Below are positions 45,349 through 57,448 of a DNA stretch of 64,000 nucleotides, piece after piece. The DNA is taken from positions 36,387 to 100,386 of the forward strand of contig JACKFN010000002.1 in NCBI GenBank assembly GCA_020632445.1. Reading direction: 5' to 3'. The notes beneath the pieces are model-generated. The model was not told where the DNA came from and did no database searches. It was given only the letters and a program-made list of their open reading frames with translations. Position numbers and translations under genes: made by a program. Source of the DNA: Candidatus Nomurabacteria bacterium. GTDB taxonomy: Bacteria; Patescibacteriota; Patescibacteriia; Magasanikbacterales; UBA922. Each line of letters begins with the position of its first letter. The first letter of the stretch is position 1.

Positions 45349-45381
45349 CCCACACATACCCACCTCTACATTCAATATCTT

Positions 45382-45411
45382 AAAAGGACACTCCTCAGGA
45401 GTGTCCTTTTT
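45382..45411 (+). terminator. rho-independent terminator
   Basis: aaaaggacactcct-c-aggagtgtccttttt. Confidence 0.65.
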
Positions 45412-45473
45412 GTATTGACAAAACCTTTGAAATGTGTTTAGCTATTATCAGACTCACGACAGGGGACAACCAC

Positions 45474-45734
45474 ATGTCGACCCGCATCCACCATGACCGT
45501 TATTTTCAGTGCACCAAGTGCGGACAAAATCACCGGCCGGATGAGATCCCCCGGGAGTGCACCGGCCGCTACAGTGAGGAAAGCATCTGCAGCGCTGACC
45601 TCAGCAGACAGCTCGAGGAGAAGCGGTGGCGACAATGTCACACGTGCCACTGCTGGAACCATCCCCACAACCCGAACATCCCCCACCGGTACACCAACTG
45701 CGCCAAATGCGACACCGAGCTTCCCACCTCCTGA
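45474..45734 (+). CDS. high-GC Cys-rich zinc-ribbon protein 2
   Basis: 86 aa; CTKCG, WRQCHTCHC, NCAKCD motifs; GC3-biased. Confidence 0.5.
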   Translation: MSTRIHHDRYFQCTKCGQNHRPDEIPRECTGRYSEESICSADLSRQLEEKRWRQCHTCHCWNHPHNPNIPHRYTNCAKCDTELPTS

Positions 45735-45828
45735 GCATCGTAACGCTCCCCACCTTTCTCCCCCATTCACAAAACTTTTTTTACAAAGACACTCCGAGTG
45801 ATCTTTTTTTGTTTTGCCATTCTGTCCC

Positions 45829-45857
45829 TTGACAGGTACTGGCTAGTCAGGTTAAAT
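45829..45857 (+). promoter_or_regulatory. promoter TTGACA-17nt-TTAAAT upstream of Cys-rich protein 3
   Basis: ttgaca ggtactggctagtcagg ttaaat. Confidence 0.4.
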
Positions 45858-45898
45858 AGATCCTAGTGCCTATTTCTTCGACGAACATCGAGGTTCAC

Positions 45899-46663: not shown

Positions 46664-46760
46664 TCACAAATCCCACCTTCTTCCCTCTCACATTTTTCAT
46701 CCAAAAACAAAACATCCCTATGAGGACGTTTTTTGTTTGTATGTTCAAATGTTTATATGA

Positions 46761-48887
46761 CTAAAGCTCATCCAGACTCTTCAAAAAACTCCTTTTGTTC
46801 CTTTCATAATCAAAAATCTCACCCTCCGGCACATATTCAATATCATCAACATCATCGCTCGGATCAGAAAACACGGTTTCAGCTCCAAAGGCCCCAATTT
46901 CTTCTATCAGATCTTTATCAATTTCCTGCAAAAACATGGATGGTCCACCAAGCACACTACGAAAACTTCCGACAAGCGGATATGTCATGTGCAAATATTT
47001 TCTAGCCCGAGTAATGGCAACATAAAACAAACGCCTTTCTTCCTCAAGACCTTTATCCTCACGTAGTGCCCGTTCATTGGGGAAATCTCCTTGCGCCACC
47101 CCAAGGATAAATACAGCTTCCCATTCAAGTCCCTTTGCCTGATGAATCGTTGACATGACGAGTTTCCCTTCGTCATCGACATGAGTTTTGTCTGTAACAG
47201 CACCCTGAAAACTTTCTTGCATGGAAGCTTCGCCCAAAAATTTTCCAAGATCCGTTTGTACTGCTGCAAAATCAGAAAGCTGTTCAATATCTTTCATGCG
47301 ATCACGATAGTTGTCATATTCTGATTCCAAGTATTCGGTATATTTTGAATCCAATAGTGCATCAATTAAGTCACTTGGGGTTACCTTTTCGATATCACCA
47401 TACTTTTTGTACACCGCTTCCATAATTTCAAAAATTTGCAAAAAATCATTCCATCCCACTTGTCCACGAGAAGAGAGTTTACTCCCCAGCCGCCCTAAAT
47501 CCTCTCCATCAAACCAAGCTCCGATAGCGGCGGAGCCTTGCAGTGCGTCTATAATTTTTTGCGCTGATGCGGGGCCAATTCCCACCTGCATGTTCAGTAC
47601 ACGACTCCATGCAATGGCGTCATCTTTGTTATGAAAAATACGCAAGTACGCCAAGATATCTTTGATATGTGATCGTTCAAAAAATCTCACTCCTCCACGA
47701 TAATCATAGGGAATATCACGCTTGGTGAGTTCAACTTCCAGTACCTGCGAAAGATGTGACGCTCGAAAGAGCACGGCCATGTGATTGATCGGTACTCCTT
47801 CGTCTCGAAGCTCGAGTATACGGTCAGCGACAAATTCTGCTTCTTCTATCTTGTCTGCAAAGGCTTGTACTTCAGGCTTGGTGAAATACTCACCAACACT
47901 CTGGAGATTTTTTTCAAACTGAGAGGTGTTTTGTGCTATGACGGTATTTGCAACGTCAAGAATGTTAGGCGTTGATCGGTAGTTGGTTTCCAGTTTGAAA
48001 ATTTTTGCGTCCGGAAACCGATGTTCAAATTGTAAAATGTTATCAATATCTGCAGCGCGAAAAGAATAGATACTTTGTGCATCATCCCCCACCACCAAAA
48101 TATTTTTGTGGTGACTTGCCAGCACATCAATGATGTTTGCCTGAATTTTATTGGTGTCCTGATACTCATCAACGAGAATATATTCAAACTGTTTGCTGAG
48201 CTTTTCTCGCACTGGCTGCGATTGGAGCAAAAGCAAAAGAAGATTGGTCAAAAGATCATCAAAGTCCATGGCATTGGCTGCCATTTTTCTTTTTTTGTAT
48301 TCTGTTGCAATACGCGCGATATCATCTGCAAAGACACTCCAGTTGGGATGTTTGAGCTCCAGAACATCCTCTATGGTCATTTCGGCATTTCTGGCATAGC
48401 TGATAATTCCCTGCAATACTTTTGCCGAAGGAAAACGTTTTGATTTTCTATCAACTCCTTCAAGCTTGAGACACACCTTCATCAAATCTTTGGCGTCTTC
48501 TGAATCCAAAATCGAAAAGTTGTTCTGATAGCCAAGCAGTGCCGCATACTGTTTGAGAATACGAAAGGCAATATGATGAAACGTCCCAGACCACGTCACC
48601 TGTTTGTCTTTGCCCAAAAGCGCTGCCACCCGATGCTGCATCTCTTTGGCGGCTTTATTGGTAAAGGTCACGAGCAAAATATGGCTCGGGTCAATACCTT
48701 TTTCGAGTAAGTACGCAACGCGATGAACAATCGTTCTCGTCTTTCCACTCCCTGCTCCTGCCAAAACCAAACATGGCCCGTCCCCCATTTTGACGACGCT
48801 ATATTGCTGTGAGTTGAGAAGGTTTTCGTAATCAAGCATAAATTTCTGCTCGTCTATGCATTGTAGCAAAAAAAGACCTTTCAGCAA
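46761..48887 (-). CDS. UvrD/PcrA-family ATP-dependent DNA helicase
   Basis: 708 aa; Walker A AGAGSGKTRT, helicase motifs throughout. Confidence 0.85.
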   Translation of the reverse strand: MLKGLFLLQCIDEQKFMLDYENLLNSQQYSVVKMGDGPCLVLAGAGSGKTRTIVHRVAYLLEKGIDPSHILLVTFTNKAAKEMQHRVAALLGKDKQVTWSGTFHHIAFRILKQYAALLGYQNNFSILDSEDAKDLMKVCLKLEGVDRKSKRFPSAKVLQGIISYARNAEMTIEDVLELKHPNWSVFADDIARIATEYKKRKMAANAMDFDDLLTNLLLLLLQSQPVREKLSKQFEYILVDEYQDTNKIQANIIDVLASHHKNILVVGDDAQSIYSFRAADIDNILQFEHRFPDAKIFKLETNYRSTPNILDVANTVIAQNTSQFEKNLQSVGEYFTKPEVQAFADKIEEAEFVADRILELRDEGVPINHMAVLFRASHLSQVLEVELTKRDIPYDYRGGVRFFERSHIKDILAYLRIFHNKDDAIAWSRVLNMQVGIGPASAQKIIDALQGSAAIGAWFDGEDLGRLGSKLSSRGQVGWNDFLQIFEIMEAVYKKYGDIEKVTPSDLIDALLDSKYTEYLESEYDNYRDRMKDIEQLSDFAAVQTDLGKFLGEASMQESFQGAVTDKTHVDDEGKLVMSTIHQAKGLEWEAVFILGVAQGDFPNERALREDKGLEEERRLFYVAITRARKYLHMTYPLVGSFRSVLGGPSMFLQEIDKDLIEEIGAFGAETVFSDPSDDVDDIEYVPEGEIFDYERNKRSFLKSLDEL

Positions 48888-48890: not shown

Positions 48891-49913
48891 CTACTTTTCT
48901 TCTTTTCGTACAATCCAAGCAATGGGACTCCCCTGACTCACGGCACCTATACCATACTGCGACACCAGCAAAAAAGAAAATGGTGCTAGCAAATCTGTAA
49001 ACGTATTGGTTTGTGGCTCATATATCTGAGCATATAGCTTCCCCGTTTGGACTGTTTGCCCCGGTATTGCGCTCCACAATATATATCCACCCTGCGACAC
49101 AAAAAGCTCTTGTGCGCTTTCCATCGGCACGGTGAGTACTTGTTCATTTTTTTCTTGCTGTTTGTTCCAAATCGACTCAATCCAACTCACGAGCCTTTTG
49201 AAACGATCCTCCATCTCAGATACTTCAATGACACTGTGATGAGATACTTCCCACGTACATGCCTTCGGTACATCTTCACCTGTATCCAAAAAAGGGATGA
49301 CACATGACTCATCAAATGCCCCATAGGCATTCTGCTTTTCCCACAATATTTGTACATGTGGACCAAGTTTTTGAAAGCAGTGTCTAGCACTTTTATGCGT
49401 AAACAAATGATTGATGCTCTTATACCCCGTAGTATGTATATCTATCACATAGTGTGCATCGTACGACAGAATTTTCAGCTCGGCAGCAAATCTTTGCTCA
49501 ACGGAAATATTCTCTTGGGCAAGCAACTTCTGGTAGTAGTGTTTTTGCTCTTCAAAAGTCTTGAAAACCTGATCAACGGAAAAAATTCTATTCCAATTTT
49601 TTCCGGTTAACGGATTCCATCTCCCCACAAGGGCATTATAGGCAACACTTTGTACACCCACTGGATTGGCACATGGCACAACTGTAATTTTCCCGGGAAA
49701 CGTCTTCACATTCTGTAAATATTGAATAACCCTTCCTAGAAGCGGCACACCAAAAATTTCCGGTCCATGTAAATTTGCTTGCAAATAAATATGTGGACCA
49801 GGAATGTCTCCGTTAAAAACGTATGCATGGAGGCGAAGCTGATCACCGGTAGGCAGGTTTTGAATGTTAATCGTTTTTTTTGTGTGTTTCATATATATTT
49901 TACGAAGAATCAA
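48891..49913 (-). CDS. succinylglutamate desuccinylase/aspartoacylase (AstE/AspA)-family zinc deacylase
   Basis: N-terminal ANLHGPEIFG (HGxE zinc-ligand motif), 340 aa. Confidence 0.5.
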   Translation of the reverse strand: MILRKIYMKHTKKTINIQNLPTGDQLRLHAYVFNGDIPGPHIYLQANLHGPEIFGVPLLGRVIQYLQNVKTFPGKITVVPCANPVGVQSVAYNALVGRWNPLTGKNWNRIFSVDQVFKTFEEQKHYYQKLLAQENISVEQRFAAELKILSYDAHYVIDIHTTGYKSINHLFTHKSARHCFQKLGPHVQILWEKQNAYGAFDESCVIPFLDTGEDVPKACTWEVSHHSVIEVSEMEDRFKRLVSWIESIWNKQQEKNEQVLTVPMESAQELFVSQGGYILWSAIPGQTVQTGKLYAQIYEPQTNTFTDLLAPFSFLLVSQYGIGAVSQGSPIAWIVRKEEK

Positions 49914-49940
49914 GGTGGAGGAAATGGTGGGAATTTCCTC

Positions 49941-50426
49941 CTATTTTGGTGGGTTGACTGAAAAAAGCCGACACTGCTCAGGCACCGCGCGTAGCGGACA
50001 GTGCAGCCTCTGCTGGTGGGTGGCAAGGCGATCACACACACCACAAGACGCACTCCACGGCACAATGTCCCATGTATCGACAGACGACTCTCTCCATCCT
50101 GCCTTTTGCGCAAGATGAGAGACTTTGTCGTTGTGTGTGAGTAGAAATGCAGAAATGTCGTTGGCAAGTACGAGAAGCTTACCAAAAATCTCACTCGCCA
50201 AGCCCCTGCCACGCGCACGAGGATGCACCCAGACAGAACCAAGTTCAAACCAACGATCATCCGGGGTTTCCCACAGCGCCGCAAAAGCAACAATGACCAA
50301 GCCCTCACTGACAAGAACGGCCTGTCCCTCTAGAAACTTCCTCTCCAAAAGGTCGGCGGAAAGCCGGCCACCAAGCAAATCAGACTCGCTATTCAGGTTG
50401 TTAGCCAAATCATCCCAGCGGTACAT
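49941..50426 (-). CDS. GNAT-family N-acetyltransferase (GC-elevated)
   Basis: WVHPRARGRGLASEI (motif A R/Q-x-x-G-x-G/A); start placed at MYRWDD; ~55% GC. Confidence 0.55.
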   Translation of the reverse strand: MYRWDDLANNLNSESDLLGGRLSADLLERKFLEGQAVLVSEGLVIVAFAALWETPDDRWFELGSVWVHPRARGRGLASEIFGKLLVLANDISAFLLTHNDKVSHLAQKAGWRESSVDTWDIVPWSASCGVCDRLATHQQRLHCPLRAVPEQCRLFSVNPPK

Positions 50427-50776
50427 GTCGCCCCCCTTGTTGCATGAAAAAAACGCTCTTCCTTGAGAGCGCCTGATTATATTCTTTGAAAAAACACAAA
50501 CACACAGTCTCAAGGGATTCTTGAACTGCGACGACGGTTGTTTGTGTGAACTGCGAAGTGCATCATAGAGATAAAAAAACCGCTCTTGGCGGTAAAATTT
50601 GCTAATGAAAATACCGCCTACGAAACGCGGATACGACGAATACTTTTGAAAGTTACTCTTTTCATATTGTTTTTACATTAGCAAAGAAGAGAAGTGCTGT
50701 CAAGGGTTTGTTTAATTCATCGAACAAAATTTAGCTCATGAAATGAAAAAACGACCCTCCTCGGATCGCGTTTTCA

Positions 50777-51886
50777 TTACTTTACCTGCTTCTCAAGAAA
50801 CTGATATATAATATCGCGTAGCTTTTCCACAGATGACAGATCGGCCCATTCATCTTGTGCATGCCAATTTGCACCAATAGTTCCAACGAGTGCAGTCGGC
50901 ATTCCTTTTGAGGCAAAGTATCGGGCATCATGAGCGGCATGACTAAAACCAACTTGAATATCTTTATTGTAAACCTGAGACGCAATCTGTGAAATTTCTT
51001 TTACAAATGGATGTTCGATATCTGTATTTACTACTGAACCGCCCACAATGATGTTTAATTCTACTTCGTCACCTAGCTCTGCCTGCAACTTTTCAACGAG
51101 CTGTTCAGGATGAAGTGCAATATCTTCGGTAAATCGAATGTCGACAACCGCTCGGGCGTTATCTGGAACCTTATTGTATGCCTGATTATCCGTTCCAATA
51201 AAACCAATGTTCGCCGTGGTTTTCCAATCCTCAATTTCAGTTGCATCGGTTATCCTCTTGATATCTGCAAGTGCCTTTATAAGCTTATCTAAAGCATTGT
51301 CCCCAAGCCAAGGCCGAGATGAATGTGAAGACTTTCCTTTCGTCTTTACTTCAAGCCATACAACTCCCTTTTCCTTTGCGGTTATTCTAAATTCGTCAAA
51401 TTGAGGGCCGTCTGCAACAAGAACAAACTTTGATTTTGCCTTCAATCCATCAACAAAGTATCCCGCACCATTCTGCCCACCAATTTCTTCATCAGAATTT
51501 AACAAAAGCGCACAATTTAAACTCTTTCCAGCAAGTCCAATATCTCGAAGTGCATACATCATAGCAACAATTCCTCCCTTCATATCTGAAGTACCTCGCG
51601 CAAAAATTTTATCGCCATCAACTCTTGGATCAAAATCTTCGTCAGGAGCGGGAACGACATCCATATGACCATTAAGTAGAAGATCCGTATCCTTCCAATC
51701 AACCCCCTTGAAGGACACAACTTGTGATACAAAACCATTACTTTCAAAATAGTGGACCTCAAAAATATCTTTTGGAAAAAATGATTCTACAATATCAAAA
51801 GCCCTTTTTACTTCTTCATGGTTTTTTGTAATGGTTTTACATTTGAGTAAATCAATAAATGTTGTTTGCATATCTGACATAGTCAT
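50777..51886 (-). CDS. M20-family metallopeptidase/amidohydrolase (ArgE/DapE/LysK-like)
   Basis: GHMDVVPA and NSDEEIGG metal-ligand motifs; start at MTMSDMQTTF (the 110 upstream codons of the track ORF are antisense of the GC-rich repeat). Confidence 0.8.
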   Translation of the reverse strand: MTMSDMQTTFIDLLKCKTITKNHEEVKRAFDIVESFFPKDIFEVHYFESNGFVSQVVSFKGVDWKDTDLLLNGHMDVVPAPDEDFDPRVDGDKIFARGTSDMKGGIVAMMYALRDIGLAGKSLNCALLLNSDEEIGGQNGAGYFVDGLKAKSKFVLVADGPQFDEFRITAKEKGVVWLEVKTKGKSSHSSRPWLGDNALDKLIKALADIKRITDATEIEDWKTTANIGFIGTDNQAYNKVPDNARAVVDIRFTEDIALHPEQLVEKLQAELGDEVELNIIVGGSVVNTDIEHPFVKEISQIASQVYNKDIQVGFSHAAHDARYFASKGMPTALVGTIGANWHAQDEWADLSSVEKLRDIIYQFLEKQVK

Positions 51887-51953
51887 CGTGTTAAAAGTAC
51901 ATAGATAGCATAGTATATCTCTGATATTATTGCAATTTTGTCGGAGAGACGAA

Positions 51954-52658
51954 TGAGCCCGCGATGGAATGTCGCGGGCGCTCAGGTAGGGTAGGTTGTT
52001 GGTGGGATGTACTAGGCGAGGAGGGACTGGACGGCGTCGGCGATGCGGTTCTGCTGCTCGGGCGTGCCGGCCACGAGCATCCCGAGCTTGCAGTCGCCGA
52101 TGGTGCCCCAGTTGAACACCACCACGCCAGTGCCGGTCTTCGAGTCGAACACGTGGCCGTTCAGATCCAGGCGACTGAAGTCGATGTGGTTGACCTGGAA
52201 GTTCCTGGCCATCCACTGCGGAATCTGCAGACGCTCGGCCACGATCGTCGGGAACGTCGCACCGTTGTAACGCGGGTTACACTCGATCATCAGGAAGTCA
52301 CCATCAGCGGTCACCACCACGTCGAAGGCGAAGTACCCCCGCATCCCGCGACGCGCCAGCTCGCTGGCCACCGGATCGGTGATCCCCCAGGGCTGGTACT
52401 GCGTCGGGTAGCGGTTGCCATCGTGGGCGTTGCCCTTGAGGATCTGCACACTCACCGCGCCGCGCTTGACGCGACCCTGGCCATCCACGTGGTACTGGAC
52501 GTTCAGGAAGGCCTTGGCGCCCGCGACCTCACGCTGGATCTGGAACGGAACATCGTCCGCCAGCTGATCGAGGTTGGTCTCCAGCTCATGACGATCGTTG
52601 CACCGGATCACGCCCAGACCCGACACCGAGACCGCGACCTTGAGGTACACGGGGTACG
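51954..52658. repeat. 705-bp direct repeat copy A (1 mismatch vs 53411..54115)
   Basis: Sequence from tgagcccgcgatggaatgtcgcgggc... to ...gaggtacacggggtacg is identical between copies except g/t at 52179 vs 53636; covers the 3' ~214 codons of each ATP-grasp gene plus 58 nt of 3' flank including hairpin GCCCGCGA-tggaatg-TCGCGGGC. Confidence 0.9.
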
Positions 52659-53106
52659 GGAACGACCAGGTGCTCCCGAGACCGGCCTTGTTGTCGTAAA
52701 GCCAGGTCTGCGGGGTGGGCACGCGCAAGGTTCGACACAACGACACGAGCTGGTTCTTGTCGTTCATCTTGGCCGTGATGTCGTACCGCCTCTGGTTCGG
52801 GCGCACCGCGTGCGCCTGGTGGCCGAAGAAGAACACGTCGAGCTCGTGGTTCAAGAACTCCCCCTGGGTCGCGACGCCGAAGCTCGCGTCCCAGACCACC
52901 TCGCCGGTGACCGACAGACCTACCTCGACGTAGTGCGCCTGGATCCAATCCCAGTGTTCGGCGAGCCTCGAATCCAGTTGGATCGTGTCCCACTGCTGCG
53001 TCGCGCACAGCGTACGCCCGCTGTAGTTGGGCAGCCCGGCGATGCGGTGGTGCTCACCGTAGCCCAGGCAGTCGAGCATGTCGTGGTTGAAAATTCGCTT
53101 GTTCAC
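52012..53106 (-). CDS. ATP-grasp ligase paralog A (high-GC, GTG start)
   Basis: ATP-grasp core: VYLKVAVSVSGLGV, FQIQREV, FAFDVVVTADGDFLMIECNPRYNG; GC3 ~90%; GGGGAG SD before GTG; N-terminal half ~70% identical to paralog B. Confidence 0.75.
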   Translation of the reverse strand: MNKRIFNHDMLDCLGYGEHHRIAGLPNYSGRTLCATQQWDTIQLDSRLAEHWDWIQAHYVEVGLSVTGEVVWDASFGVATQGEFLNHELDVFFFGHQAHAVRPNQRRYDITAKMNDKNQLVSLCRTLRVPTPQTWLYDNKAGLGSTWSFPYPVYLKVAVSVSGLGVIRCNDRHELETNLDQLADDVPFQIQREVAGAKAFLNVQYHVDGQGRVKRGAVSVQILKGNAHDGNRYPTQYQPWGITDPVASELARRGMRGYFAFDVVVTADGDFLMIECNPRYNGATFPTIVAERLQIPQWMARNFQVNHIDFSRLDLNGHVFDSKTGTGVVVFNWGTIGDCKLGMLVAGTPEQQNRIADAVQSLLA

Positions 53107-53109
53107 TTC

Positions 53110-53178
53110 TCAAATCTCCCCAAATTGGTGTCTAGACCTTTCGGCCCCCTCTAGCGAAACGGAACCCCGCGTCGCCAT
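53110..53178 (-). CDS. 22-aa high-GC ORF translationally coupled to ATP-grasp A (candidate carrier/substrate peptide)
   Basis: MATRGSVSLEGAERSRHQFGEI, TGA 3 nt before the GTG start codon of the ligase; same high GC as the ligase. Confidence 0.3.
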   Translation of the reverse strand: MATRGSVSLEGAERSRHQFGEI

Positions 53179-53198
53179 AAAGAAGCCCAAAAGAAAAA

Positions 53199-53227
53199 CC
53201 TCCGCCTAGTGGGCGGAGGTCCGTTTT
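53199..53227 (-). terminator. attenuator terminator downstream of Ile/Leu/Val-rich leader peptide
   Basis: minus strand CCTCCGCC-cacta-GGCGGAGG followed by TTTTTCTTTT. Confidence 0.55.
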
Positions 53228-53240
53228 GTTCTCAGTATTC

Positions 53241-53330
53241 TTATCGAGACAAACGCAAACCAACACCCACAGATCGGAGGATGAGCACGAGAATATCAAT
53301 AATCAAACTGTGCTGTTGATTTCGCTTCAT
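53241..53330 (-). CDS. 29-aa branched-chain-amino-acid-rich leader peptide (leaderless)
   Basis: MKRNQQHSLIIDILVLILRSVGVGLRLSR (13/29 Ile/Leu/Val, run LIIDILVLIL); TTGACA 53368..53363 with ATG ~at predicted TSS. Confidence 0.4.
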   Translation of the reverse strand: MKRNQQHSLIIDILVLILRSVGVGLRLSR

Positions 53331-53410
53331 ATTAATTAGAGGTTAACACCCCCAAAAAAAATTGTCAATAGTCACTGTGTATAAATAGTTTTTTACATCA
53401 CAATGATCAT

Positions 53411-54115
53411 TGAGCCCGCGATGGAATGTCGCGGGCGCTCAGGTAGGGTAGGTTGTTGGTGGGATGTACTAGGCGAGGAGGGACTGGACGGCGTCGGCGA
53501 TGCGGTTCTGCTGCTCGGGCGTGCCGGCCACGAGCATCCCGAGCTTGCAGTCGCCGATGGTGCCCCAGTTGAACACCACCACGCCAGTGCCGGTCTTCGA
53601 GTCGAACACGTGGTCGTTCAGATCCAGGCGACTGAAGTCGATGTGGTTGACCTGGAAGTTCCTGGCCATCCACTGCGGAATCTGCAGACGCTCGGCCACG
53701 ATCGTCGGGAACGTCGCACCGTTGTAACGCGGGTTACACTCGATCATCAGGAAGTCACCATCAGCGGTCACCACCACGTCGAAGGCGAAGTACCCCCGCA
53801 TCCCGCGACGCGCCAGCTCGCTGGCCACCGGATCGGTGATCCCCCAGGGCTGGTACTGCGTCGGGTAGCGGTTGCCATCGTGGGCGTTGCCCTTGAGGAT
53901 CTGCACACTCACCGCGCCGCGCTTGACGCGACCCTGGCCATCCACGTGGTACTGGACGTTCAGGAAGGCCTTGGCGCCCGCGACCTCACGCTGGATCTGG
54001 AACGGAACATCGTCCGCCAGCTGATCGAGGTTGGTCTCCAGCTCATGACGATCGTTGCACCGGATCACGCCCAGACCCGACACCGAGACCGCGACCTTGA
54101 GGTACACGGGGTACG
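53411..54115. repeat. 705-bp direct repeat copy B
   Basis: see copy A. Confidence 0.9.
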
Positions 54116-54596
54116 TGAAGGCCACGTCACGCAGCGCCGACTTGTTGTCGAACAACTGCGTCTCGGGCGTGGGCACGCCCAGCTCGCGGCACAGGGCGAT
54201 CAGCTTGTTCTTGTTGTTCATGGCCTCGGTGATGTCGAACCACTGCTGGTTCGGGCGCACCGCGTGCGCCTGGTGGCCGAAAAAGAACACATCGAGCTCG
54301 TGGCCCGCGAACTCGGACGCAGCCGCGACGCCGAAGCTCGCGTCCCAGACCACCTCGCCGGTGACCGACAGACCGACCTCGGCGTAGTGCGCCTGGATCC
54401 AGTCCCAGTGCGGCGACAGCGCACCGTCCAGCTGGATCGTGTCCCACTGCTGCGTCGCGCACAATGGACGGCCCGTGTAGTGCTTGAGCACCGCCCACAT
54501 AGCCGCCTGATCGGCACGAACTCCGGCGTTGGCAACGCCCAACGGGTTCATACCGAAGGAATCCAAGACGTCACCGTTAAAAAGCTTTCGCTTCAT
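53469..54596 (-). CDS. ATP-grasp ligase paralog B (high-GC)
   Basis: Start at MKRKLFNGDVLDSFG aligning with paralog A N-terminus (alternative in-frame start 15 codons upstream); C-terminal 214 aa identical to A. Confidence 0.75.
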   Translation of the reverse strand: MKRKLFNGDVLDSFGMNPLGVANAGVRADQAAMWAVLKHYTGRPLCATQQWDTIQLDGALSPHWDWIQAHYAEVGLSVTGEVVWDASFGVAAASEFAGHELDVFFFGHQAHAVRPNQQWFDITEAMNNKNKLIALCRELGVPTPETQLFDNKSALRDVAFTYPVYLKVAVSVSGLGVIRCNDRHELETNLDQLADDVPFQIQREVAGAKAFLNVQYHVDGQGRVKRGAVSVQILKGNAHDGNRYPTQYQPWGITDPVASELARRGMRGYFAFDVVVTADGDFLMIECNPRYNGATFPTIVAERLQIPQWMARNFQVNHIDFSRLDLNDHVFDSKTGTGVVVFNWGTIGDCKLGMLVAGTPEQQNRIADAVQSLLA

Positions 54597-54683
54597 CTTC
54601 ACTTCCCCGCATCCGCTTGTGATAAATAGCTGAGAGTTCATCGGAAAGGCGTAAACCTTCCCGATCAAAACCTCAATCAACGA

Positions 54684-54715
54684 AAAAAGCCACCCGAGGT
54701 GGCTTGTGTTTTGCT
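54684..54715 (-). terminator. attenuator terminator downstream of Phe leader peptide
   Basis: minus strand GCCACC-tcgg-GTGGC followed by TTTTTT; 5' arm can alternatively pair with GGTGG-TAA-GTGTGTTT at the end of the leader ORF. Confidence 0.65.
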
Positions 54716-54731
54716 GTATACTCAAACACAC

Positions 54732-54791
54732 TTACCACCCACGGGAAGCTCCAAAAAAGAAGAAAAAATTACTACTATAAATGTGTTTCAT
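54732..54791 (-). CDS. 19-aa Phe-rich leader peptide, pheL-like (leaderless)
   Basis: MKHIYSSNFFFFFGASRGW: same MKHI start as E. coli pheL ([15 protein letters not shown]), five consecutive Phe codons; stop codon embedded in antiterminator arm. Confidence 0.6.
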   Translation of the reverse strand: MKHIYSSNFFFFFGASRGW

Positions 54792-54798
54792 ATATGGG

Positions 54799-54827
54799 AC
54801 ATTATCATATCTATCACAAGATGTCAA
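54799..54827 (-). promoter_or_regulatory. promoter TTGACA-17nt-TAATGT (or GATAAT with 15-nt spacer) for Phe leader
   Basis: minus strand ttgaca tcttgtgatagatatga taatgt cccatat ATG; predicted TSS within a few nt of the ATG. Confidence 0.5.
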
Positions 54828-54956
54828 TATGTTCTTTACACACTTTTCCACAACAAAAACAATTCTCTCCTGTAACCTACTATCACTTTGCAAACGAGAA
54901 CTTATCATCTTTCCAACAAACCGTTCTCAACTGTTCTTTGTTATCCACACCTCCAC

Positions 54957-54999
54957 TTGACCTCTTTTTCAAAATGTACTACAGTACTAGTACACTAGT
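54957..54999 (+). promoter_or_regulatory. promoter TTGACC-17nt-TACAGT overlapped by tandem ACTAGT trp-operator-like repeats
   Basis: GTACTAGTACACTAGTA: two ACTAGT half-sites 8 bp apart (54986..54991, 54994..54999), closely resembling E. coli trp operator GTACTAGTTAACTAGTAC. Confidence 0.55.
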
Positions 55000-55003
55000 A
55001 TAT

Positions 55004-55276
55004 ATGTACTCTTCCAAAGAACTTGTTTCACTGCTATGCAAAATAACAGAGCCAAAAGAAATGGAGCTGTTTTTGACAGACCTACTCACGAGCAGTGAGC
55101 AAAAAGAACTCTCACAAAGACTTCAAATTGTAAAGCTCCTCCATAAAAATGTACCTCAGCGAACAATCGCAGAAAAGCTTGGCATTGGAGTGGCAACCAT
55201 AACACGAGGCTCCAAAGAAATGCAGAAAAAAAATAGTGGGTTTCAAAAAATACTCGACAAGTACTATGATCGCTAA
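55004..55276 (+). CDS. Trp repressor (TrpR)-family DNA-binding protein
   Basis: LLTSSEQKELSQRLQIVKLLHKNVPQRTIAEKLGIGVATITRGSKEMQ aligns with E. coli TrpR [50 protein letters not shown]; start chosen downstream of promoter. Confidence 0.65.
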   Translation: MYSSKELVSLLCKITEPKEMELFLTDLLTSSEQKELSQRLQIVKLLHKNVPQRTIAEKLGIGVATITRGSKEMQKKNSGFQKILDKYYDR

Positions 55277-55344
55277 CACTTCACAATTCAATCTTCATTG
55301 GTGGCCTTACACACTTTTTTGGTAAAGCCGGTTTTTTGTTTGCT

Positions 55345-55385
55345 CTTGTGACTCTGGCTTTTCCAGAGTCTTTTTGTTTTTTCAA
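55345..55385 (+). terminator. terminator after trpR-like gene
   Basis: gactctgg-cttttc-cagagtc followed by tttttgtttttt. Confidence 0.55.
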
Positions 55386-55432
55386 AGGGCTGGCAAAAAA
55401 AATTTGCCGGCAAGAGAAAACGCAAGGAGACA

Positions 55433-56376
55433 CCATGGAACTTCAACGTTTTGTGCTCGAGATGCTCCCCCAACTGCTCGAGTGCGGCAACGCCGCAGCC
55501 ATTGCTGTCTGGGCGCGCGAGCATCTACAGCAGTTGCCTGCTTCAAGGGATGAGCTTACGGTCCTCGATCTATCCATGATCGAAACGAGTCTGGCTCACA
55601 GTGGCGTGCCCATACCAGCATCGCTCACCAGTCTACTGATGAACCTCACAAACGGTGGCCCTTTCCTCACCTACCACCAACTGGTGATGGTAAACCCTGC
55701 GCAGGCCACTCGATGCTTCACTCGTGGACCTTCCGGTGAGGCCGAACGTGCTTTTTACCTTGCCCACAAGGAAATTGAGCATGGCCTCGCCATGGCATGC
55801 GCCAAAATCATGAAGGCCTTGGGACACACTGACCCCCAACAGGCCTGCAATGCTCTGCATGGCATTGAGCATGACACAAGCGTTCTGATCGAAAACACTC
55901 GACACCTCGCTGGGATGAATCCAGAACACTTCGCTGCCTTTCGGGGATATCTCGCCAGCCATCCAGTCCATGGATTCCCTGGTCCAAGCGGTCTGTTTTC
56001 TCCAGGAGTCTACCTCCTCGAGCTGCTCCTGCGTGGCCCACAGAGCACGTGGCCCCAGTTCTTTGCAAATAGAGGCACATGCTTTGACAACGAATCGCTG
56101 CGAAGTATCACGGGCGCCATGGAGGATGGGCACACGCTCACGGCACACATGATATCACTCGACTGGCCACCACGCATGCATGAGGTCGTCCGGTTCCTTG
56201 AGACACTGCTCGACAGCTTCCGTGGTCACCACTACAAAGCCGTACGCAAACAGATTCCACAAGCGCTCACCCCAGGTGGAACAGGAACCGCTGGAGAATC
56301 TGCAGGACAATTCCTGCGTGATCGAATGCGTGAAAGCAAAGCCTCCCACCGAAATCAACCCACCAAACGGGAGTAG
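55433..56376 (+). CDS. tryptophan 2,3-dioxygenase-like protein (high-GC)
   Basis: AFRGYLASHP...LLELLL and GTGTAGESAGQFLRDRM resemble TDO motifs DFRGYL..FRLLE and GTGGSSG..YLR; AAGGAGA SD; ~60% GC. Confidence 0.45.
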
Positions 56377-56407
56377 GGCTTACCTACTCCCATTCAAACT
56401 CCTTACT

Positions 56408-57448
56408 ATGCAGACACAATTTCAAAATCACACCATATCACAAATTATCAAAGGCGGATGGCAACTTGCTGGGGGTCATGGCAACATAAATGCACAGCAG
56501 GCTATCAGTGATATGTTTTCATTTGTAGATGCAGGCATAAACACCTTTGACTGCGCCGATATTTACACCGGTGTTGAAGAAATGATTGGCCATTTTCGAA
56601 TGCAGTACCAAAAAAAACATGGACTAAGCGAACTTGAAAAAATCCATATTCACACAAAATTTGTGCCTGACTACGAAAGTCTCCATGAGATTTCACTGTC
56701 ATCTGTCGAAAATATTATCGATAGATCATTACGACGCCTCCAAACGGAAAGACTTGATCTGGTACAATTTCATTTTTGGGATTTTTCGATAAACACCTAT
56801 ACACAAGCAGCACTCCATCTCAAAACACTTCAGCAAAAAGGAAAAATAAAACACATTGGTCTGACCAATTTTGACGTTGTTCACATGAAAGAGCTTCTCG
56901 ATCTTGGAGTTGAAATCGCTTCAAACCAAATTCAATATTCGCTCATTGATAACCGATCAGAAAAAGGAATGCTTGAATTTTGCAAGCAAAACGATATTGC
57001 AATTTTTTGTTATGGTACTGTTTCCGGTGGACTGCTAAGTAACAGATATCTTCACGCACCTGAGCCACACGCCCCATTTGAAAACAGATCACTCACAAAA
57101 TACAAACTCATCCAAGAAGAACGTGGAAATTGGACAGTCTTCCAAACCCTTTTGCAAGTATTACATGAAATTGGTCAAAAGCACCACGCGAGTATTACCA
57201 ATATTGCAACACGATACATTCTTGATCATTCCAGCGCAAAAGCGGTTATTATAGGAGCTCGAGATGCAACTCATCTGCAAGATAATATCAAACTTTTTGA
57301 CTTTTCACTTGATACAAGTGATAGGGAAAAAATTCAAAAGGTACTTGAAAGTTTCACTCCATTGCCTGGCGATATATATGAACTTGAAAGAGATAAACAC
57401 GGCAAACACGGAAGCATTATGAAATACAATCTTAACAAAAAAATATGA
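56408..57448 (+). CDS. aldo/keto reductase
   Basis: AKR fold motifs (FDCADIYTG, GLTNF, IQYSLID); start at MQTQFQ. Confidence 0.7.
   Translation: MQTQFQNHTISQIIKGGWQLAGGHGNINAQQAISDMFSFVDAGINTFDCADIYTGVEEMIGHFRMQYQKKHGLSELEKIHIHTKFVPDYESLHEISLSSVENIIDRSLRRLQTERLDLVQFHFWDFSINTYTQAALHLKTLQQKGKIKHIGLTNFDVVHMKELLDLGVEIASNQIQYSLIDNRSEKGMLEFCKQNDIAIFCYGTVSGGLLSNRYLHAPEPHAPFENRSLTKYKLIQEERGNWTVFQTLLQVLHEIGQKHHASITNIATRYILDHSSAKAVIIGARDATHLQDNIKLFDFSLDTSDREKIQKVLESFTPLPGDIYELERDKHGKHGSIMKYNLNKKI

What the first reader, a model, noticed from the sequence alone, without database searches (positions are those of the whole stretch)
48891..54830. Two foreign ATP-grasp ligase paralogs, each behind its own amino-acid leader-peptide attenuator (Phe-rich and Ile/Leu/Val-rich), co-located with M20 peptidase, GNAT and AstE/AspA-type deacylase
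The minus strand reads in this order: promoter, a 19-aa leaderless ORF MKHIYSSNFFFFFGASRGW, then an intrinsic terminator GCCACC-tcgg-GTGGC-TTTTTT. The terminator's 5' arm can instead pair with GGTGG-TAA-GTGTGTTT, the last codons and stop of the leader. A ribosome reaching the stop would block this antiterminator, while a ribosome stalled at the five Phe codons would leave it free. This is the classical pheL/trpL logic, and the peptide even shares the MKHI start of E. coli pheL. It directly precedes ATP-grasp paralog B (53469..54596). A second unit follows: a TTGACA box, a 29-aa leaderless ORF MKRNQQHSLIIDILVLILRSVGVGLRLSR (an ilvL/leuL-like BCAA run), the hairpin CCTCCGCC-cacta-GGCGGAGG plus a T-run, a 22-aa high-GC ORF ending 3 nt before the GTG start of ATP-grasp paralog A (52012..53106), then an M20 peptidase 70 nt further on. 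The two ligases have identical C-terminal catalytic halves and ~70%-identical N-terminal halves, which is where substrate-binding determinants would lie. Different amino-acid-sensing leaders therefore fit paralogs specialised for different amino acids. Downstream on the same strand are a GNAT acyltransferase and an AstE/AspA-family deacylase. Together these read as one N-acyl-amino-acid or small-peptide ligation, protection and deprotection module. The chemistry is analogous to LysW/LysX/LysK or NAA/NAAG metabolism, but with an unrecognised ligase subfamily. The ligases and GNAT are ~65% GC with ~90% GC3 in a 38% GC genome, while the leaders and promoters are host-like and AT-rich.
Basis: partly seen in the sequence, partly recalled or inferred. 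Interest (0 to 1): 0.85.

Follow-up and report, generated by a model that had tools for sequence, protein, structure and literature searches.

The report
Amino-acid-sensing leader peptide attenuators in CPR
In a tiny-genome Candidate Phyla Radiation bacterium, two copies of an uncharacterised peptide-ligase gene each sit behind a short leader peptide rich in one kind of amino acid plus a terminator switch; related bacteria and four more sites in this window share the design, which suggests how these host-dependent bacteria sense amino-acid supply.

Summary
On the minus strand, each of two ATP-grasp paralogs (54596..53469 and 53106..52012) follows the same series: a TTGACA-17-TAnnnT promoter, a near-leaderless short ORF, and a strong intrinsic terminator. 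The ORFs are MKHIYSSNFFFFFGASRGW and MKRNQQHSLIIDILVLILRSVGVGLRLSR. When I fold the RNA with a ribosome footprint masked, a stall at the Phe or Ile/Leu codons gives an antiterminator. A ribosome at the stop codon gives the terminator.

The same layout, with different sequences, precedes ligase homologues in Patescibacteria, Saccharibacteria and Moraniibacteria, and in one low-GC gammaproteobacterial MAG. The leader ORFs there keep their frame and their hydrophobic or aromatic runs.

- Two Arg-codon leaders before the GNAT and AstE genes.
- A Met-codon leader before a SAM hydrolase.
- An Asn-codon leader directly before the tRNA-Asn gene, conserved in two other CPR lineages.

The ligase belongs to an uncharacterised clade that resembles L-amino-acid ligases. 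It is always followed by a peptidase, either M20 or isoaspartyl type. The closest characterised analogue is the Staphylococcus hmrA/ldmS operon.

The readings as one module, as a LysW-type system, and as simply foreign genes are not supported. I rate it a new variant of a known mechanism, in a new phylum and with new targets.

The parts
54799..54827 (-). Promoter P1: TTGACA, 17 nt, TAATGT (with TG upstream), 7 nt before the leader ATG, so the transcript is effectively leaderless
   Evidence: Sequence; regex scan. The hexamers and spacing are identical to P3.
54732..54791 (-). Leader ORF 1, MKHIYSSNFFFFFGASRGW*, with five consecutive Phe codons at 54767..54753
   Evidence: Analogous Phe/Trp-run leaders lie upstream of ligase homologues L003 and L086-088.
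54693..54745 (-). Antiterminator 1: CCCG-T-GGGTGG-TAA-GTGTGTT..AACACA-A-GCCACC-T-CGGG. Its 5' strand covers the last leader codons and the stop codon.
   Evidence: Truncated and masked folds. The energy gain alone is not significant against shuffles (56/300).
54681..54705 (-). Intrinsic terminator 1: AAGCCACCTCGGGTGGCTT (dG -11.4) plus TTTTTT
53469..54596 (-). ATP-grasp ligase paralog B (375 aa; GC 0.64, GC3 0.88)
   Evidence: (P0002)
53340..53368 (-). Promoter P2: TTGACA, 17 nt, TAACCT, 9 nt before the leader ATG
53241..53330 (-). Leader ORF 2, MKRNQQHSLIIDILVLILRSVGVGLRLSR*, with an Ile/Leu/Val run at codons 9-18. It resembles the L001 leader MNQTSQQSIFFIWFVLLLVGRRSFGMSM.
53189..53221 (-). 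Intrinsic terminator 2: GACCTCCGCCCACTAGGCGGAGGTT (dG -18.5) plus T-run. The alternative pairing uses the leader segment 53281..53258.
53110..53178 (-). 22-aa ORF MATRGSVSLEGAERSRHQFGEI*, between terminator 2 and the ligase A start. No evidence of function.
   Evidence: No counterpart was seen upstream of paralog B or of homologues.
52012..53106 (-). ATP-grasp ligase paralog A (364 aa; GC 0.64, GC3 0.89). The AF2 model has pLDDT 92.6.
   Evidence: (P0001)
51957..51979 (-). GC-rich 3' UTR hairpin GCCCGCGAcattccaTCGCGGGC, duplicated along with the ligase 3' half. The second copy is at 53436..53414.
50777..51886 (-). M20 peptidase of the ArgE/DapE type (369 aa; GC3 0.29), 125 nt after ligase A
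   Evidence: An M20 gene follows the ligase in 12 other loci and in L020.
50745..50769 (-). Terminator after the M20 gene (GCGATCCGAGGAGGGTCGT plus T-run). It closes the ligase A and M20 unit.
50572..50703 (-). Arg leader unit 1: TTGACA, 17 nt, TAATGT, 9 nt, ATG(50665) MKRVTFKSIRRIRVS* (50665..50618), then terminator ACCGCCAAGAGCGGT plus T7
50446..50566 (-). Arg leader unit 2: MMHFAVHTNNRRRSSRIP* (50566..50510), then terminator GCGCTCTCAAGGAAGAGCGT plus T7, about 20 nt before the GNAT ATG
49941..50426 (-). GNAT acetyltransferase (161 aa; GC 0.53). No homologues at E<=1e-5 other than itself.
48891..49892 (-). AstE/AspA-family deacylase (333 aa)

Best explanation
The locus holds at least three separately controlled transcription units in a Candidatus Nomurabacteria (CPR) genome. 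Each is governed by ribosome-mediated transcription attenuation.

Proposed mechanism:
1. Each unit starts at a TTGACA-17-TAnnnT promoter placed 7-9 nt before an ATG. The transcript is therefore effectively leaderless, and a ribosome loads as soon as the 5' end emerges.
2. The short ORF carries a run of codons for one amino acid or a small group of them. The runs are Phe x5 before ligase B, Ile/Leu/Val before ligase A and M20, and Arg before GNAT and AstE.
3. If the cognate charged tRNA is plentiful, the ribosome reaches the stop codon. There it covers the 5' strand of an antiterminator, the terminator hairpin forms, and transcription ends.
4. If the charged tRNA is scarce, the ribosome stalls on the run and leaves the antiterminator strand free. 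That strand sequesters the terminator 5' arm, and RNA polymerase reads into the gene.

What is controlled: the regulated genes encode an uncharacterised clade of ATP-grasp enzymes that resemble L-amino-acid ligases. In every lineage examined, the ligase is paired with a peptidase, either M20 or isoaspartyl (Asparaginase_2) type. I infer a dipeptide or N-acyl-amino-acid ligase and hydrolase pair that is induced by starvation for hydrophobic amino acids. The two paralogs, which differ only in the N-terminal ~150 residues, would be specialised for different amino acids.

Shown: the sequence elements, their recurrence and conservation, the predicted alternative folds, the fold class of the ligase, and the gene pairing.

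Inferred: translation of the leaders, the switch in vivo, and the chemistry.
For: Anatomy and statistics:
- The elements are present and verified.
- The Phe-codon run is unique in the window; 0.09 is expected.
- The composite pattern gives 4 hits against a mean of 0.13 in shuffles.
- The same scan over 138 kb of CPR loci returns only ligase leaders and Asn leaders, plus one likely false hit.

Switching in silico: a 28-nt ribosome footprint was masked.
- With the footprint at regulatory codons, no terminator forms. This holds for Phe codons 9-12, ILV codons 9-13, Arg1 codons 10-11, Arg2 codons 11-13, Met codons 9-14 and Asn codons 7-9.
- With the stop codon in the A site, the terminator forms in all six units.
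- Leader 2 and Arg2 also terminate when no ribosome is present, which is the classical four-region logic.

Conservation of the ligase leaders:
- L003: MDYAKNNWFFFFSRH
- L086-088: MNYTKNNW[LF]FF[DN]FFS.., with an in-frame 6-nt indel
- L020 and L115: MK.AI.NNSYLF..FILWVLETGFDLR... In the first 16 codons they differ by 6 synonymous and 4 conservative changes, next to an invariant 33-nt antiterminator block.
- L009: ..AYIFSNNAWWTLAL..
- L144: ..FGFIMFWFLSFSWWSVTV
- L162: two tandem leaders
- L119: ..NIVSYYYR..
- L001: syntenic, MNQTSQQSIFFIWFVLLLVGRRSFGMSM
- L005: a low-GC gammaproteobacterial MAG

Antiterminators:
- In all 14 ligase leaders folded, the terminator 5' arm pairs with a segment in or at the end of the leader ORF.
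- In the shuffle test of 17 units (14 ligase leaders plus Arg1, Arg2 and Asn), the energy gain beats shuffles at 15/300 or fewer in 9 cases, and at 0/300 for L020 and L119.

Same design elsewhere in the window:
- Asn leader before tRNA-Asn, conserved in L165 and in L167/L168.
- Met leader before a SAM hydrolase.

The ligase:
- Profile search hits LdmS (7r8p) at E 9e-13.
- The AF2 model has pLDDT 92.6.
- The best Foldseek matches are a Streptomyces peptide ligase, LdmS, BesA and PGM1, with TM 0.70-0.78.
- A peptidase gene follows the ligase in all lineages checked.

Precedents:
- LdmS sits in an operon with the M20D peptidase HmrA, under Met-responsive control by CodY/CymR boxes or an S-box riboswitch (PMC9486568).
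- Leaderless leader-peptide attenuators are established in Actinobacteria (PMC8079986).
Against: - There are no transcript or ribosome data. All structures are thermodynamic predictions.
- For the window's own two ligase leaders, the antiterminator energy gain does not stand out from shuffled upstream sequence (56/300 and 37/300). Their support comes from architecture and from the family-wide pattern.
- No close orthologue of leader 1 is available. The nearest ligase, L170, is cut off at the contig end just upstream of its terminator.
- In leader 2, the 'antiterminator' state is a long hairpin whose basal stem still abuts the U-run. It might itself terminate.
- Leader composition varies among lineages (Phe, Trp, Tyr, Ile, Leu, Met), so specificity for a single amino acid is not established.
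- L006 has a leader ORF and a terminator but no obvious codon run. In two Falkowbacteria the leader lies one gene further upstream.
- It is paradoxical for a ligase that consumes an amino acid to be induced by lack of that amino acid. The LdmS authors note the same paradox.
- The 710-nt identical tail of the paralogs could in principle be an assembly artefact.
Confidence: 0.74

Rival explanations
1. The leaders are translated and do control termination, but they sense something other than tRNA charging. The alternative would be a small molecule or the ligase product acting on the nascent peptide in the ribosome tunnel (as with TnaC, SpeFL or ErmCL), or membrane or chaperone engagement of a hydrophobic nascent chain.
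For: Several ligase leaders look like short hydrophobic segments rather than clean single-amino-acid runs (L001, L020, L005 and leader 2). Composition drifts between related leaders: L001 has IFFIWFVLLLV where the window has LIIDILVLIL.
Against: The shortest leaders contain little beyond the codon run (MDYAKNNWFFFFSRH, MKHIYSSNFFFFFGASRGW). The same architecture carries Asn, Arg and Met runs before genes tied to those same amino acids, namely tRNA-Asn and a Met-releasing SAM hydrolase. That match is the signature of codon-run sensing. No arrest motif is conserved across the leaders.
Confidence: 0.1
2. The short ORFs encode functional peptides and are not sensors. They could be substrates or carriers for the ATP-grasp enzyme (graspetide precursor, LysW-like carrier) or small hydrophobic type-I-toxin-like peptides. 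The hairpin after them would then only set the ratio of peptide to enzyme.
For: ATP-grasp enzymes next to small ORFs are typical of graspetide clusters. Some leaders (L162 MIAIIMIAMGISFCVLVKSR, leader 2) resemble Ibs-type hydrophobic peptides.
Against: There is no conserved core, no Thr/Ser plus Asp/Glu motifs, and the C-termini vary (W, R, H, M, A, I, V, E). Graspetide maturase and RimK/LysX models score 15-18 bits against cut-offs of 143-475. The fold matches are free-amino-acid or peptide ligases. Identical architecture precedes a tRNA gene, a GNAT and a SAM hydrolase. The antiterminator overlaps the stop codon.
Confidence: 0.06
3. The terminators are real, but the switch is RNA-only or protein-mediated, and the ORFs are incidental. 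Candidates are a riboswitch, a T-box-like tRNA sensor, or the divergently encoded TrpR-family protein.
For: A TrpR-family gene lies divergently upstream of leader 1 (Pfam E 2e-23). The region folds better than shuffles (z -2.2 and -3.7).
Against: No Rfam family reaches threshold; the best hit is Phe_leader at 22 bits against 55. The leaders are too short (~100 nt) and too variable for a T-box. Relatives preserve the reading frames and codon runs through synonymous changes and in-frame indels, while the flanking sequence diverges. The TrpR gene is absent from the syntenic relative L001, which still has the leader.
Confidence: 0.06
4. The pattern is chance or artefact. AT-rich intergenic DNA yields T-runs that read as Phe, the hairpins are ordinary terminators or insulators, and the tandem paralogs with identical tails result from MAG misassembly.
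For: The individual antiterminator energies for the two window leaders are not significant. The repeat of ~710 identical nt is the kind of sequence that confuses assemblers.
Against: The composite pattern gives 4 hits against 0.13 expected. No upstream same-strand gene exists for terminator 1 to terminate, since the next genes upstream are on the other strand. The design recurs upstream of homologues in many independent assemblies. Two independent Logan assemblies reproduce 4.3 kb and 1.4 kb of the locus at 100% identity, but they do not span the repeat.
Confidence: 0.04

Closest known systems
Enterobacterial amino-acid operon attenuators: pheL-pheA, the pheM-pheST leader, trpL, ilvL, leuL (Rfam Phe_leader RF01859 and similar)
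   Same: A short leader ORF with a run of regulatory codons, an intrinsic terminator, and an antiterminator whose 5' strand is covered by a ribosome at the stop codon. Leader 2 and Arg2 also show the 1:2 pairing that gives termination without translation.
   Different: There is no sequence or covariance-model membership (22 bits against 55). The transcripts are leaderless or nearly so. The host phylum (CPR) largely lacks amino-acid biosynthesis. The targets are not biosynthetic operons but a ligase and peptidase pair, deacylase-type enzymes, a SAM hydrolase and a tRNA gene.
Leaderless leader-peptide attenuators of Actinobacteria: Streptomyces lividans and Corynebacterium leuL, ilvL, alaL-alaS, thrL-thrS, metL-metN (PMC8079986)
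   Same: The leader ORF starts at or within a few nt of the transcription start, after a TTGACn / TAnnnT promoter. The peptides are short (12-29 aa). Targets include non-biosynthetic genes such as aaRS genes and a transporter.
   Different: The phylum and the targets differ. Here a canonical hairpin plus U-run is present at every site, whereas several actinobacterial cases lack one. Several units are packed into one 6-kb locus, and some are in tandem.
The hmrA/ldmS operon of Staphylococcus: an M20D peptidase plus L-Asp--L-Met ligase (PDB 7R8P/7R8Q; PMC9486568)
   Same: An ATP-grasp ligase of the same fold group is the best sequence-profile PDB hit (E 9e-13) and a top Foldseek hit. It is co-located with an M20 peptidase and placed under control that responds to the cognate amino acid. 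In some species that control is a terminator-type S-box riboswitch.
   Different: Identity is only ~15-18%, and the NCBIfam LdmS model scores 21-23 bits against 475. The gene order is reversed. The M20 gene belongs to the ArgE/DapE type, not M20D. The sensor is a leader peptide and not a riboswitch or repressor. The substrates are unknown.
LysX/LysW/LysK amino-group carrier system
   Same: An ATP-grasp ligase next to an M20-type deacylase.
   Different: No LysW-like carrier ORF is present. The RimK/LysX family model scores 18 bits against 143. The structural neighbours are free-substrate peptide ligases.

Membership tests
Ribosome-mediated (leader-peptide) transcription attenuator | A short ORF at the 5' end of the transcript with a run of codons for the sensed amino acid | tested here: met
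   FFFFF at 54767..54753 and LIIDILVLIL at codons 9-18 of leader 2. The promoter lies 7-9 nt upstream of the ATG.
Ribosome-mediated (leader-peptide) transcription attenuator | An intrinsic terminator between the leader ORF and the regulated gene, on the sense strand | tested here: met
   54705..54681 (dG -11.4) and 53221..53189 (dG -18.5). These have the longest stems of the terminator-like sites in the region.
Ribosome-mediated (leader-peptide) transcription attenuator | A mutually exclusive antiterminator that a stalled ribosome leaves free and a ribosome at the stop codon blocks | tested here: met
   Masked-footprint folding switches as expected at all six units. Caveat: the energy gain for the two ligase leaders is not significant on its own (56/300 and 37/300 shuffles).
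Ribosome-mediated (leader-peptide) transcription attenuator | Conservation of the leader ORF (frame and codon run) and of the terminator in relatives | tested here: met
   At least 13 of 162 homologue loci, including all five CPR species genomes (in the two Falkowbacteria, one gene further upstream). Synonymous changes and in-frame indels are seen.
Ribosome-mediated (leader-peptide) transcription attenuator | Read-through that increases when the cognate charged tRNA is limiting | not testable with these tools
   This needs Term-seq, reporter assays or in vitro coupled assays.
Rfam Phe_leader (RF01859) | Covariance-model score at or above the gathering threshold (55 bits) | tested here: not met
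   22.0 and 22.3 bits, E about 1, driven mostly by the terminator.
ATP-grasp L-amino-acid / peptide ligases (LdmS, BesA, PGM1, BL00235 group) | The ATP-grasp fold, with closest structural neighbours among peptide-bond-forming ligases | tested here: met
   AF2 pLDDT 92.6. The top Foldseek hits are 8ynd, 7r8q, 8yi6 and 3wvq at TM 0.70-0.78. Profile against PDB: 7r8p at E 9e-13 and 3vot at 3e-6.
ATP-grasp L-amino-acid / peptide ligases (LdmS, BesA, PGM1, BL00235 group) | Membership in a curated equivalog family (LdmS, BesA) | tested here: not met
   NCBIfam LdmS scores 20.7-23.3 bits against 475, and BesA 21 against 750. Pfam ATP-grasp_3 scores 18.7 against 23.2 for B and gives no hit for A. This is therefore a separate, unnamed clade, found in 320 GTDB species.
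ATP-grasp L-amino-acid / peptide ligases (LdmS, BesA, PGM1, BL00235 group) | ATP-dependent ligation of a carboxylate to an amino-acid amine | not testable with these tools
   This needs an enzyme assay.
D-Ala-D-Ala / D-Ala-D-Lac ligase | Score above the family cut-offs over the full length | tested here: not met
   The best score is 24.8 bits against 550, covering only ~60 residues. PDB Ddl and VanA hits are at E 4e-5 to 1e-3 and are partial.
LysX/LysW/LysK carrier-protein pathway | A LysW-type carrier ORF and a RimK/LysX-family ligase | tested here: not met
   RimK family scores 18.3 bits against 143. No carrier-like ORF is present. The 22-aa ORF ends ..HQFGEI and has no counterpart elsewhere.
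Graspetide (RiPP) ATP-grasp maturase with precursor peptide | A maturase-family ligase and a precursor with a conserved core rich in Thr/Ser and Asp/Glu | tested here: not met
   TIGR04187 scores 16.6 against 350 and TIGR04184 15.2 against 475. The leader ORFs have no conserved core.
Peptidase M20 (ArgE/DapE type) | The Peptidase_M20 and M20_dimer domains | tested here: met
   115 and 60 bits. The DapE-ArgE subfamily scores 156 bits, below its cut-off of 218. PDB 2rb7 hits at E 2.5e-36.
AstE/AspA deacylase family | The AstE_AspA catalytic domain | tested here: met
   45.5 bits against 25. PDB 3fmc hits at E 5e-22.

The most novel reading that the evidence does not exclude
This CPR lineage, which cannot make most amino acids, may use a set of near-leaderless leader-peptide attenuators as its main amino-acid sensing system. 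Each would be tuned by its codon run and wired to salvage functions rather than to biosynthesis:
- Phe and Ile/Leu/Val leaders control paralogous dipeptide-type ligases and a peptidase.
- Arg leaders control a GNAT and a deacylase.
- A Met leader controls a SAM hydrolase that releases methionine.
- An Asn leader directly gates transcription of the tRNA-Asn gene.

The last would be a tRNA that controls its own synthesis through translation of its own codons. The paralog pair would then be a natural experiment in which leader specificity and ligase N-domain specificity co-evolved.
Probability: 0.4. Interest if true: 0.9.

Novelty: new variant of a known kind. Interest (0 to 1): 0.78.

Why it matters
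Leader-peptide attenuation is a textbook mechanism, but it is known mainly from amino-acid biosynthetic operons of Proteobacteria and Actinobacteria. Three points make this case worth attention.

1. It appears in Patescibacteria (CPR), organisms with minimal regulatory repertoires whose way of sensing nutrient supply from their hosts is unknown. The mechanism requires tight coupling of transcription and translation, so it also says something about CPR gene expression.

2. The targets differ in kind from the known ones. They are enzymes that ligate or release amino acids from conjugates and, outside the finding, a tRNA gene. The codon run of each leader gives a free functional hint about otherwise unannotatable genes. 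That makes the substrate preference of an uncharacterised ligase clade, present in 320 GTDB species, directly testable.

3. The design can be found by a simple scan (4 hits against 0.13 expected here). A survey across CPR genomes could quickly map an amino-acid starvation regulon in uncultivated bacteria.

Tried and rejected
- Exact-match contig look-ups for the ligases and UvrD found nothing.
- Rfam at gathering threshold found only the rRNA and two tRNAs. At relaxed threshold only sub-threshold Phe_leader hits appeared.
- Antiterminator energy against shuffles was not significant for the window's own ligase leaders, so I do not rest the case on it.
- A GNAT homologue search returned only the query itself, so conservation of the Arg leaders could not be tested.
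- Two Logan contigs are 100% identical to the window but stop inside the M20 gene. They do not test the tandem repeat.
- The closest ligase homologue (L170) is cut off just upstream of its terminator, so it gives no orthologue of leader 1.
- The high-GC gene at 55435..56376 has no PDB sequence hit. Its single-sequence AF2 model is unusable (pLDDT 39.5). Its only lead is a weak tryptophan 2,3-dioxygenase hit at E 0.007.
- More distant RecO neighbourhoods (L171, L172) carry an AsnRS-like gene and no tRNA-Asn, so they give no further Asn-leader examples.
- Literature searches found no report of leader-peptide attenuation in CPR, of a tRNA gene controlled by a leader peptide, or of the cassette of ATP-grasp ligase plus isoaspartyl peptidase. 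The library is incomplete, so this is absence of evidence only.
- I rejected the Ddl, LysX/LysW, graspetide and T-box readings (see the membership tests).

Full report
**1. What is there**

The window comes from a Candidatus Nomurabacteria (CPR/Patescibacteria) contig. The two ligases, the GNAT and RecO all match NCBI proteins from one 188,040-bp contig at 100% identity. Overall GC is 44%.

Read 5' to 3' on the minus strand, the locus contains these elements:

| Element | Coordinates | Notes |
|---|---|---|
| C39-like peptidase | 58687..57803 | |
| Three plus-strand genes | between 57448 and 54974 | TrpR family, a high-GC unknown, an aldo-keto reductase |
| Promoter P1 | 54827..54799 | TTGACA-17-TAATGT |
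| Leader ORF 1 | 54791..54732 | MKHIYSSNFFFFFGASRGW* |
| Terminator 1 | 54705..54681 | |
| ATP-grasp B | 54596..53469 | |
| Promoter P2 | 53368..53340 | TTGACA-17-TAACCT |
| Leader ORF 2 | 53330..53241 | MKRNQQHSLIIDILVLILRSVGVGLRLSR* |
| Terminator 2 | 53221..53189 | |
| 22-aa ORF | 53178..53110 | |
| ATP-grasp A | 53106..52012 | |
| M20 peptidase | 51886..50777 | |
| Terminator after M20 | 50769..50745 | |
| Two further leader and terminator units | 50703..50446 | see section 5 |
| GNAT | 50426..49941 | |
| AstE/AspA deacylase | 49892..48891 | |
| UvrD | 48887..46761 | |

- The leader coordinates are 1 nt off.
- The genome GC is 44%, not 38%.
- The GNAT has GC3 0.54, not about 0.9.
- The gap from ligase A to the M20 gene is 125 nt, not 70 nt.

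**2. Is it more than chance?**

- The five-codon Phe pattern occurs once in 64 kb, at this site, against 0.09 expected.
- The two hairpins have the longest stems among the terminator-like sites in 10 kb.
- Terminator 1 cannot be the end of an upstream gene, because the next genes upstream are on the other strand.
- A composite scan looked for TTGACN, 16-18 nt, TAnnnT, 3-30 nt, ATG, an ORF of 6-45 aa, and then a hairpin with a T-run. It finds four sites in the window. The same scan on 30 shuffles that preserve local dinucleotide content gives a mean of 0.13 and never more than 1.
- All four real sites lie upstream of same-strand genes, and each carries a run of one amino acid.

**3. Do the structures switch?**

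Folding the nascent RNA up to the terminator loop pairs the terminator 5' arm with leader nt 53-62. For leader 2 the partner is nt 64-73.

I then masked a 28-nt ribosome footprint.

For leader 1:
- A stall with the A site on Phe codons 9-12 gives the antiterminator and no terminator pairs.
- The stop codon in the A site gives the 8-bp terminator.

For leader 2:
- A stall on codons 9-13 removes the terminator.
- A ribosome at the stop codon, or no ribosome at all, gives the terminator. This is the classical four-region behaviour.

Caveats:
- These are thermodynamic predictions.
- For these two leaders, the energy gained by pairing the 5' arm upstream is not unusual against shuffled upstream sequence (56/300 and 37/300).
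- In leader 2 the alternative fold is a long hairpin that still ends at the U-run.

**4.

The ligase belongs to a coherent family. It has 72 clusters in the protein database, 320 hits among GTDB species genomes and 372 hits in metagenome contigs.

A syntenic relative (L001) has the order C39, a 359-nt gap, the ligase at 48% identity, M20, then UvrD. Its gap contains TTGACG-17-TTAAAT, the ORF MNQTSQQSIFFIWFVLLLVGRRSFGMSM*, and a terminator. This ORF is recognisably related to leader 2.

Independent versions of the design precede the ligase elsewhere:
- L003: MDYAKNNWFFFFSRH.
- L086-088: MNYTKNNW[LF]FF[DN]FFS.., differing from L003 by an in-frame 6-nt indel.
- L020 and L115: these differ by 6 synonymous and 4 conservative substitutions in the first 16 codons, next to an invariant 33-nt block. 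That block forms a perfect 16-bp antiterminator.
- L009 (Saccharibacteria): it contains a WW pair.
- L144: rich in F and W.
- L162: two tandem Ile/Met-rich leaders.
- L119: it contains YYY.
- L005: a low-GC gammaproteobacterial MAG, which also has a leader before a leuA-like gene.

In all 14 ligase leaders folded, the terminator 5' arm pairs with the 3' part of the leader ORF. In the shuffle test of 17 units, 9 beat shuffles at 15/300 or fewer.

All five CPR species genomes in the GTDB set carry a leader. In the two Falkowbacteria it lies one gene further upstream. Among about 70 cyanobacterial and Chromatiaceae loci, only two weak, chance-level candidates appear.

**5. The same device elsewhere in the window**

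- A promoter identical to P1 (TTGACA-17-TAATGT), then 9 nt, then MKRVTFKSIRRIRVS* (50665..50618), followed by a terminator.
- In tandem, MMHFAVHTNNRRRSSRIP* (50566..50510), followed by a terminator.

Both switch correctly in masked folding. GNAT and AstE are therefore a separate, Arg-keyed unit.

At 40108..39985, MIFKKAQNMMMAMMTQIRKAIVLCI* and a strong terminator precede a member of the SAM hydroxide adenosyltransferase (SAM hydrolase) family. Enzymes of this family release methionine from SAM.

At 5623..5483 the elements are:
- TTGACG-17-TATAGT, then 9 nt, then MTYTLANNNRNNTLR*.
- An antiterminator whose 5' strand begins at the stop codon.
- A terminator whose T-run abuts the 5' end of the tRNA-Asn(GTT) gene. 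There is no room for a separate promoter.

This Asn leader is conserved in two other CPR lineages, reached through RecO neighbourhoods:
- L165: MKHRYANNNANNWLR.
- L167 and L168: MKSRHANNNNGNNTLR.
- They share the promoter spacing, show synonymous AAT/AAC and GCA/GCG changes, and have an A-to-G change that wobble pairing tolerates in both alternative helices.

Six units in 64 kb, each keyed to an amino acid that matches its target where the target is interpretable, is the strongest argument that the two ligase leaders are genuine attenuators.

**6. What is being regulated**

- Pfam gives no hit above threshold for the ligases.
- A family profile hits LdmS (7r8p/7r8q) at E 9e-13 and the L-amino-acid ligase BL00235 at 3e-6.
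- The AlphaFold model is confident (pLDDT 92.6). Its nearest solved folds are a Streptomyces peptide ligase, LdmS, BesA and PGM1, at TM 0.70-0.78 and 15-18% identity.
- All curated equivalog models score far below threshold: LdmS, BesA, Ddl/Van, RimK and graspetide maturases.

The ligase is therefore an unnamed clade that resembles L-amino-acid ligases.

In every lineage checked, a peptidase gene follows the ligase:
- M20 in the window, L001, L003, L004/L015, L006, L020, L083, L085-089 and L170.
- Asparaginase_2 (isoaspartyl peptidase type) in L009, L144, L005 and L119, and also in Acaryochloris and Thiohalocapsa.

This swap of one unrelated peptidase for another suggests that ligase and peptidase act on the same bond. 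A beta-aspartyl or similar N-acyl-amino-acid linkage is a reasonable guess, but it is only an inference.

The characterised analogue is striking. LdmS is encoded with the M20D peptidase HmrA, and that operon carries CodY/CymR boxes or an S-box riboswitch. It thus responds to the ligase's own amino-acid substrate (PMC9486568). That paper also notes the same paradox seen here: a ligase that consumes the amino acid is induced when the amino acid is scarce.

**7. The paralogs and the 'foreign' question**

A and B are identical over the C-terminal ~214 residues, apart from G316D, and over ~60 nt of 3' UTR. They differ in the N-terminal ~150 residues. Gene conversion or a recent partial duplication would explain this. 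In LdmS, N-domain residues recognise the amine substrate, so specialisation for different amino acids is plausible.

The high GC3 (0.88-0.89, against 0.29 for the adjacent M20 gene) is real. However, the slot is ancestral (L001). The GC3 excess is shared by the subclade: L170 0.87, L001 0.70 and L144 0.69, each next to an AT-rich peptidase gene. These ligases are only 44-55% identical to one another, and in an NJ tree they group with other CPR-type sequences, not inside the GC-rich Chromatiaceae clade.

Simple recent import does not explain this pattern. I leave it unexplained.

**8. Comparison with what is known, and verdict**

The mechanism works like enterobacterial pheL, trpL or ilvL attenuators. 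In its leaderless layout it most resembles the actinobacterial leader peptides (PMC8079986). It is not a member of Rfam Phe_leader.

What is new:
- The phylum.
- The density of units, some of them in tandem.
- The targets: salvage-type enzymes, and a tRNA gene outside the finding.

Searches of the paper library found no prior description, but the library is incomplete.

I rate the finding as a new variant of a known kind. My confidence that the two ligase leaders are functional attenuators is about 0.75-0.8. My confidence in the specific chemistry is much lower.

Noticed in passing
window 5623..5410 (-); L165 8070..8327; L167 11632..11851; L168 11171..11390: An Asn-codon leader (MTYTLANNNRNNTLR*), an antiterminator and a terminator lie directly in front of the tRNA-Asn(GTT) gene. 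The T-run abuts the tRNA 5' end, so the tRNA can only be transcribed by read-through. The arrangement is conserved in two other CPR lineages, with the peptide motif ANNN.NN.LR*. This may be a tRNA gene that regulates itself through its own codons. I found no precedent in the paper library.
   Followed up: partly
window 40108..39188 (-): A Met-codon leader MIFKKAQNMMMAMMTQIRKAIVLCI* starts 4 nt after the stop codon of a rhodanese/UPF0176 gene. A terminator follows (dG -15.2), then a SAM hydroxide adenosyltransferase (SAM hydrolase) family gene, whose product would release methionine. Masked-ribosome folding switches as expected.
   Followed up: partly
window 50703..50446 (-): Two tandem Arg-codon leader and terminator units (MKRVTFKSIRRIRVS*, MMHFAVHTNNRRRSSRIP*) lie before the GNAT and AstE genes. 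The first uses the same promoter hexamers as the Phe leader. The GNAT has weak similarity to N-acetylglutamate synthases and has no homologues at E<=1e-5.
   Followed up: partly
window 52012..54596; L170 129..1259; L001 8001..9107; L144 4538..5659: GC3 is elevated in the ligase gene only (0.69-0.89), next to AT-rich peptidase genes (0.17-0.41). This recurs in four genomes whose ligases are just 44-55% identical. Neither a single recent transfer nor normal amelioration explains it.
   Followed up: partly
window 54974..57448 (+): Divergent from the Phe leader are a TrpR-family gene, a high-GC gene of unknown function (55435..56376), and an aldo-keto reductase. The high-GC gene has a weak tryptophan 2,3-dioxygenase hit (E 0.007) and an all-helical prediction, but the model is unusable. 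The whole block is absent from the syntenic relative L001. It might link to aromatic amino acids.
   Followed up: partly
N-termini of ligase homologues, e.g. L003 5893.., L020 5773.., L004 5923..: CPR ligases carry 1-4 tandem copies of a short motif (..[IVF]xNH[DGHN]..) ahead of the conserved FNHD..C start of the family. Paralog B has lost the His and the Cys (FNGDVLDS).
   Followed up: no
L005 9872..9715 (-) and 10664..10502 (-): The low-GC gammaproteobacterial MAG that has a ligase leader carries two more leader and terminator units. One (MYKLQTKQFISITGLIIKPGFNLCT) precedes a LeuA/citramalate-synthase-like gene.
   Followed up: no
window 5500..7000, 27000..28000, 43500..44000, 45000..46700, 60000..60500: Several further islands of 52-63% GC sit in the 44% GC window. 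Examples are a 2OG-Fe(II) oxygenase at 6079..6894, also present next to RecO in L165, and a Cys-rich 265-aa ORF at 45866..46663. The 16S rRNA gene at 29057..30539 accounts for one more such island.
   Followed up: no
L171 10828..12123; L172 10840..12129: In more distant CPR relatives, RecO is followed directly by an AsnRS-like class IIb synthetase. In the window, L165 and L167, that neighbourhood instead holds the leader-controlled tRNA-Asn.
   Followed up: no
L170 1380..1430: Between the ligase and the M20 gene of the closest homologue there is a TATAAT box, followed 10 nt later by a tiny ORF MTKSSS*. No terminator was evident.
   Followed up: no
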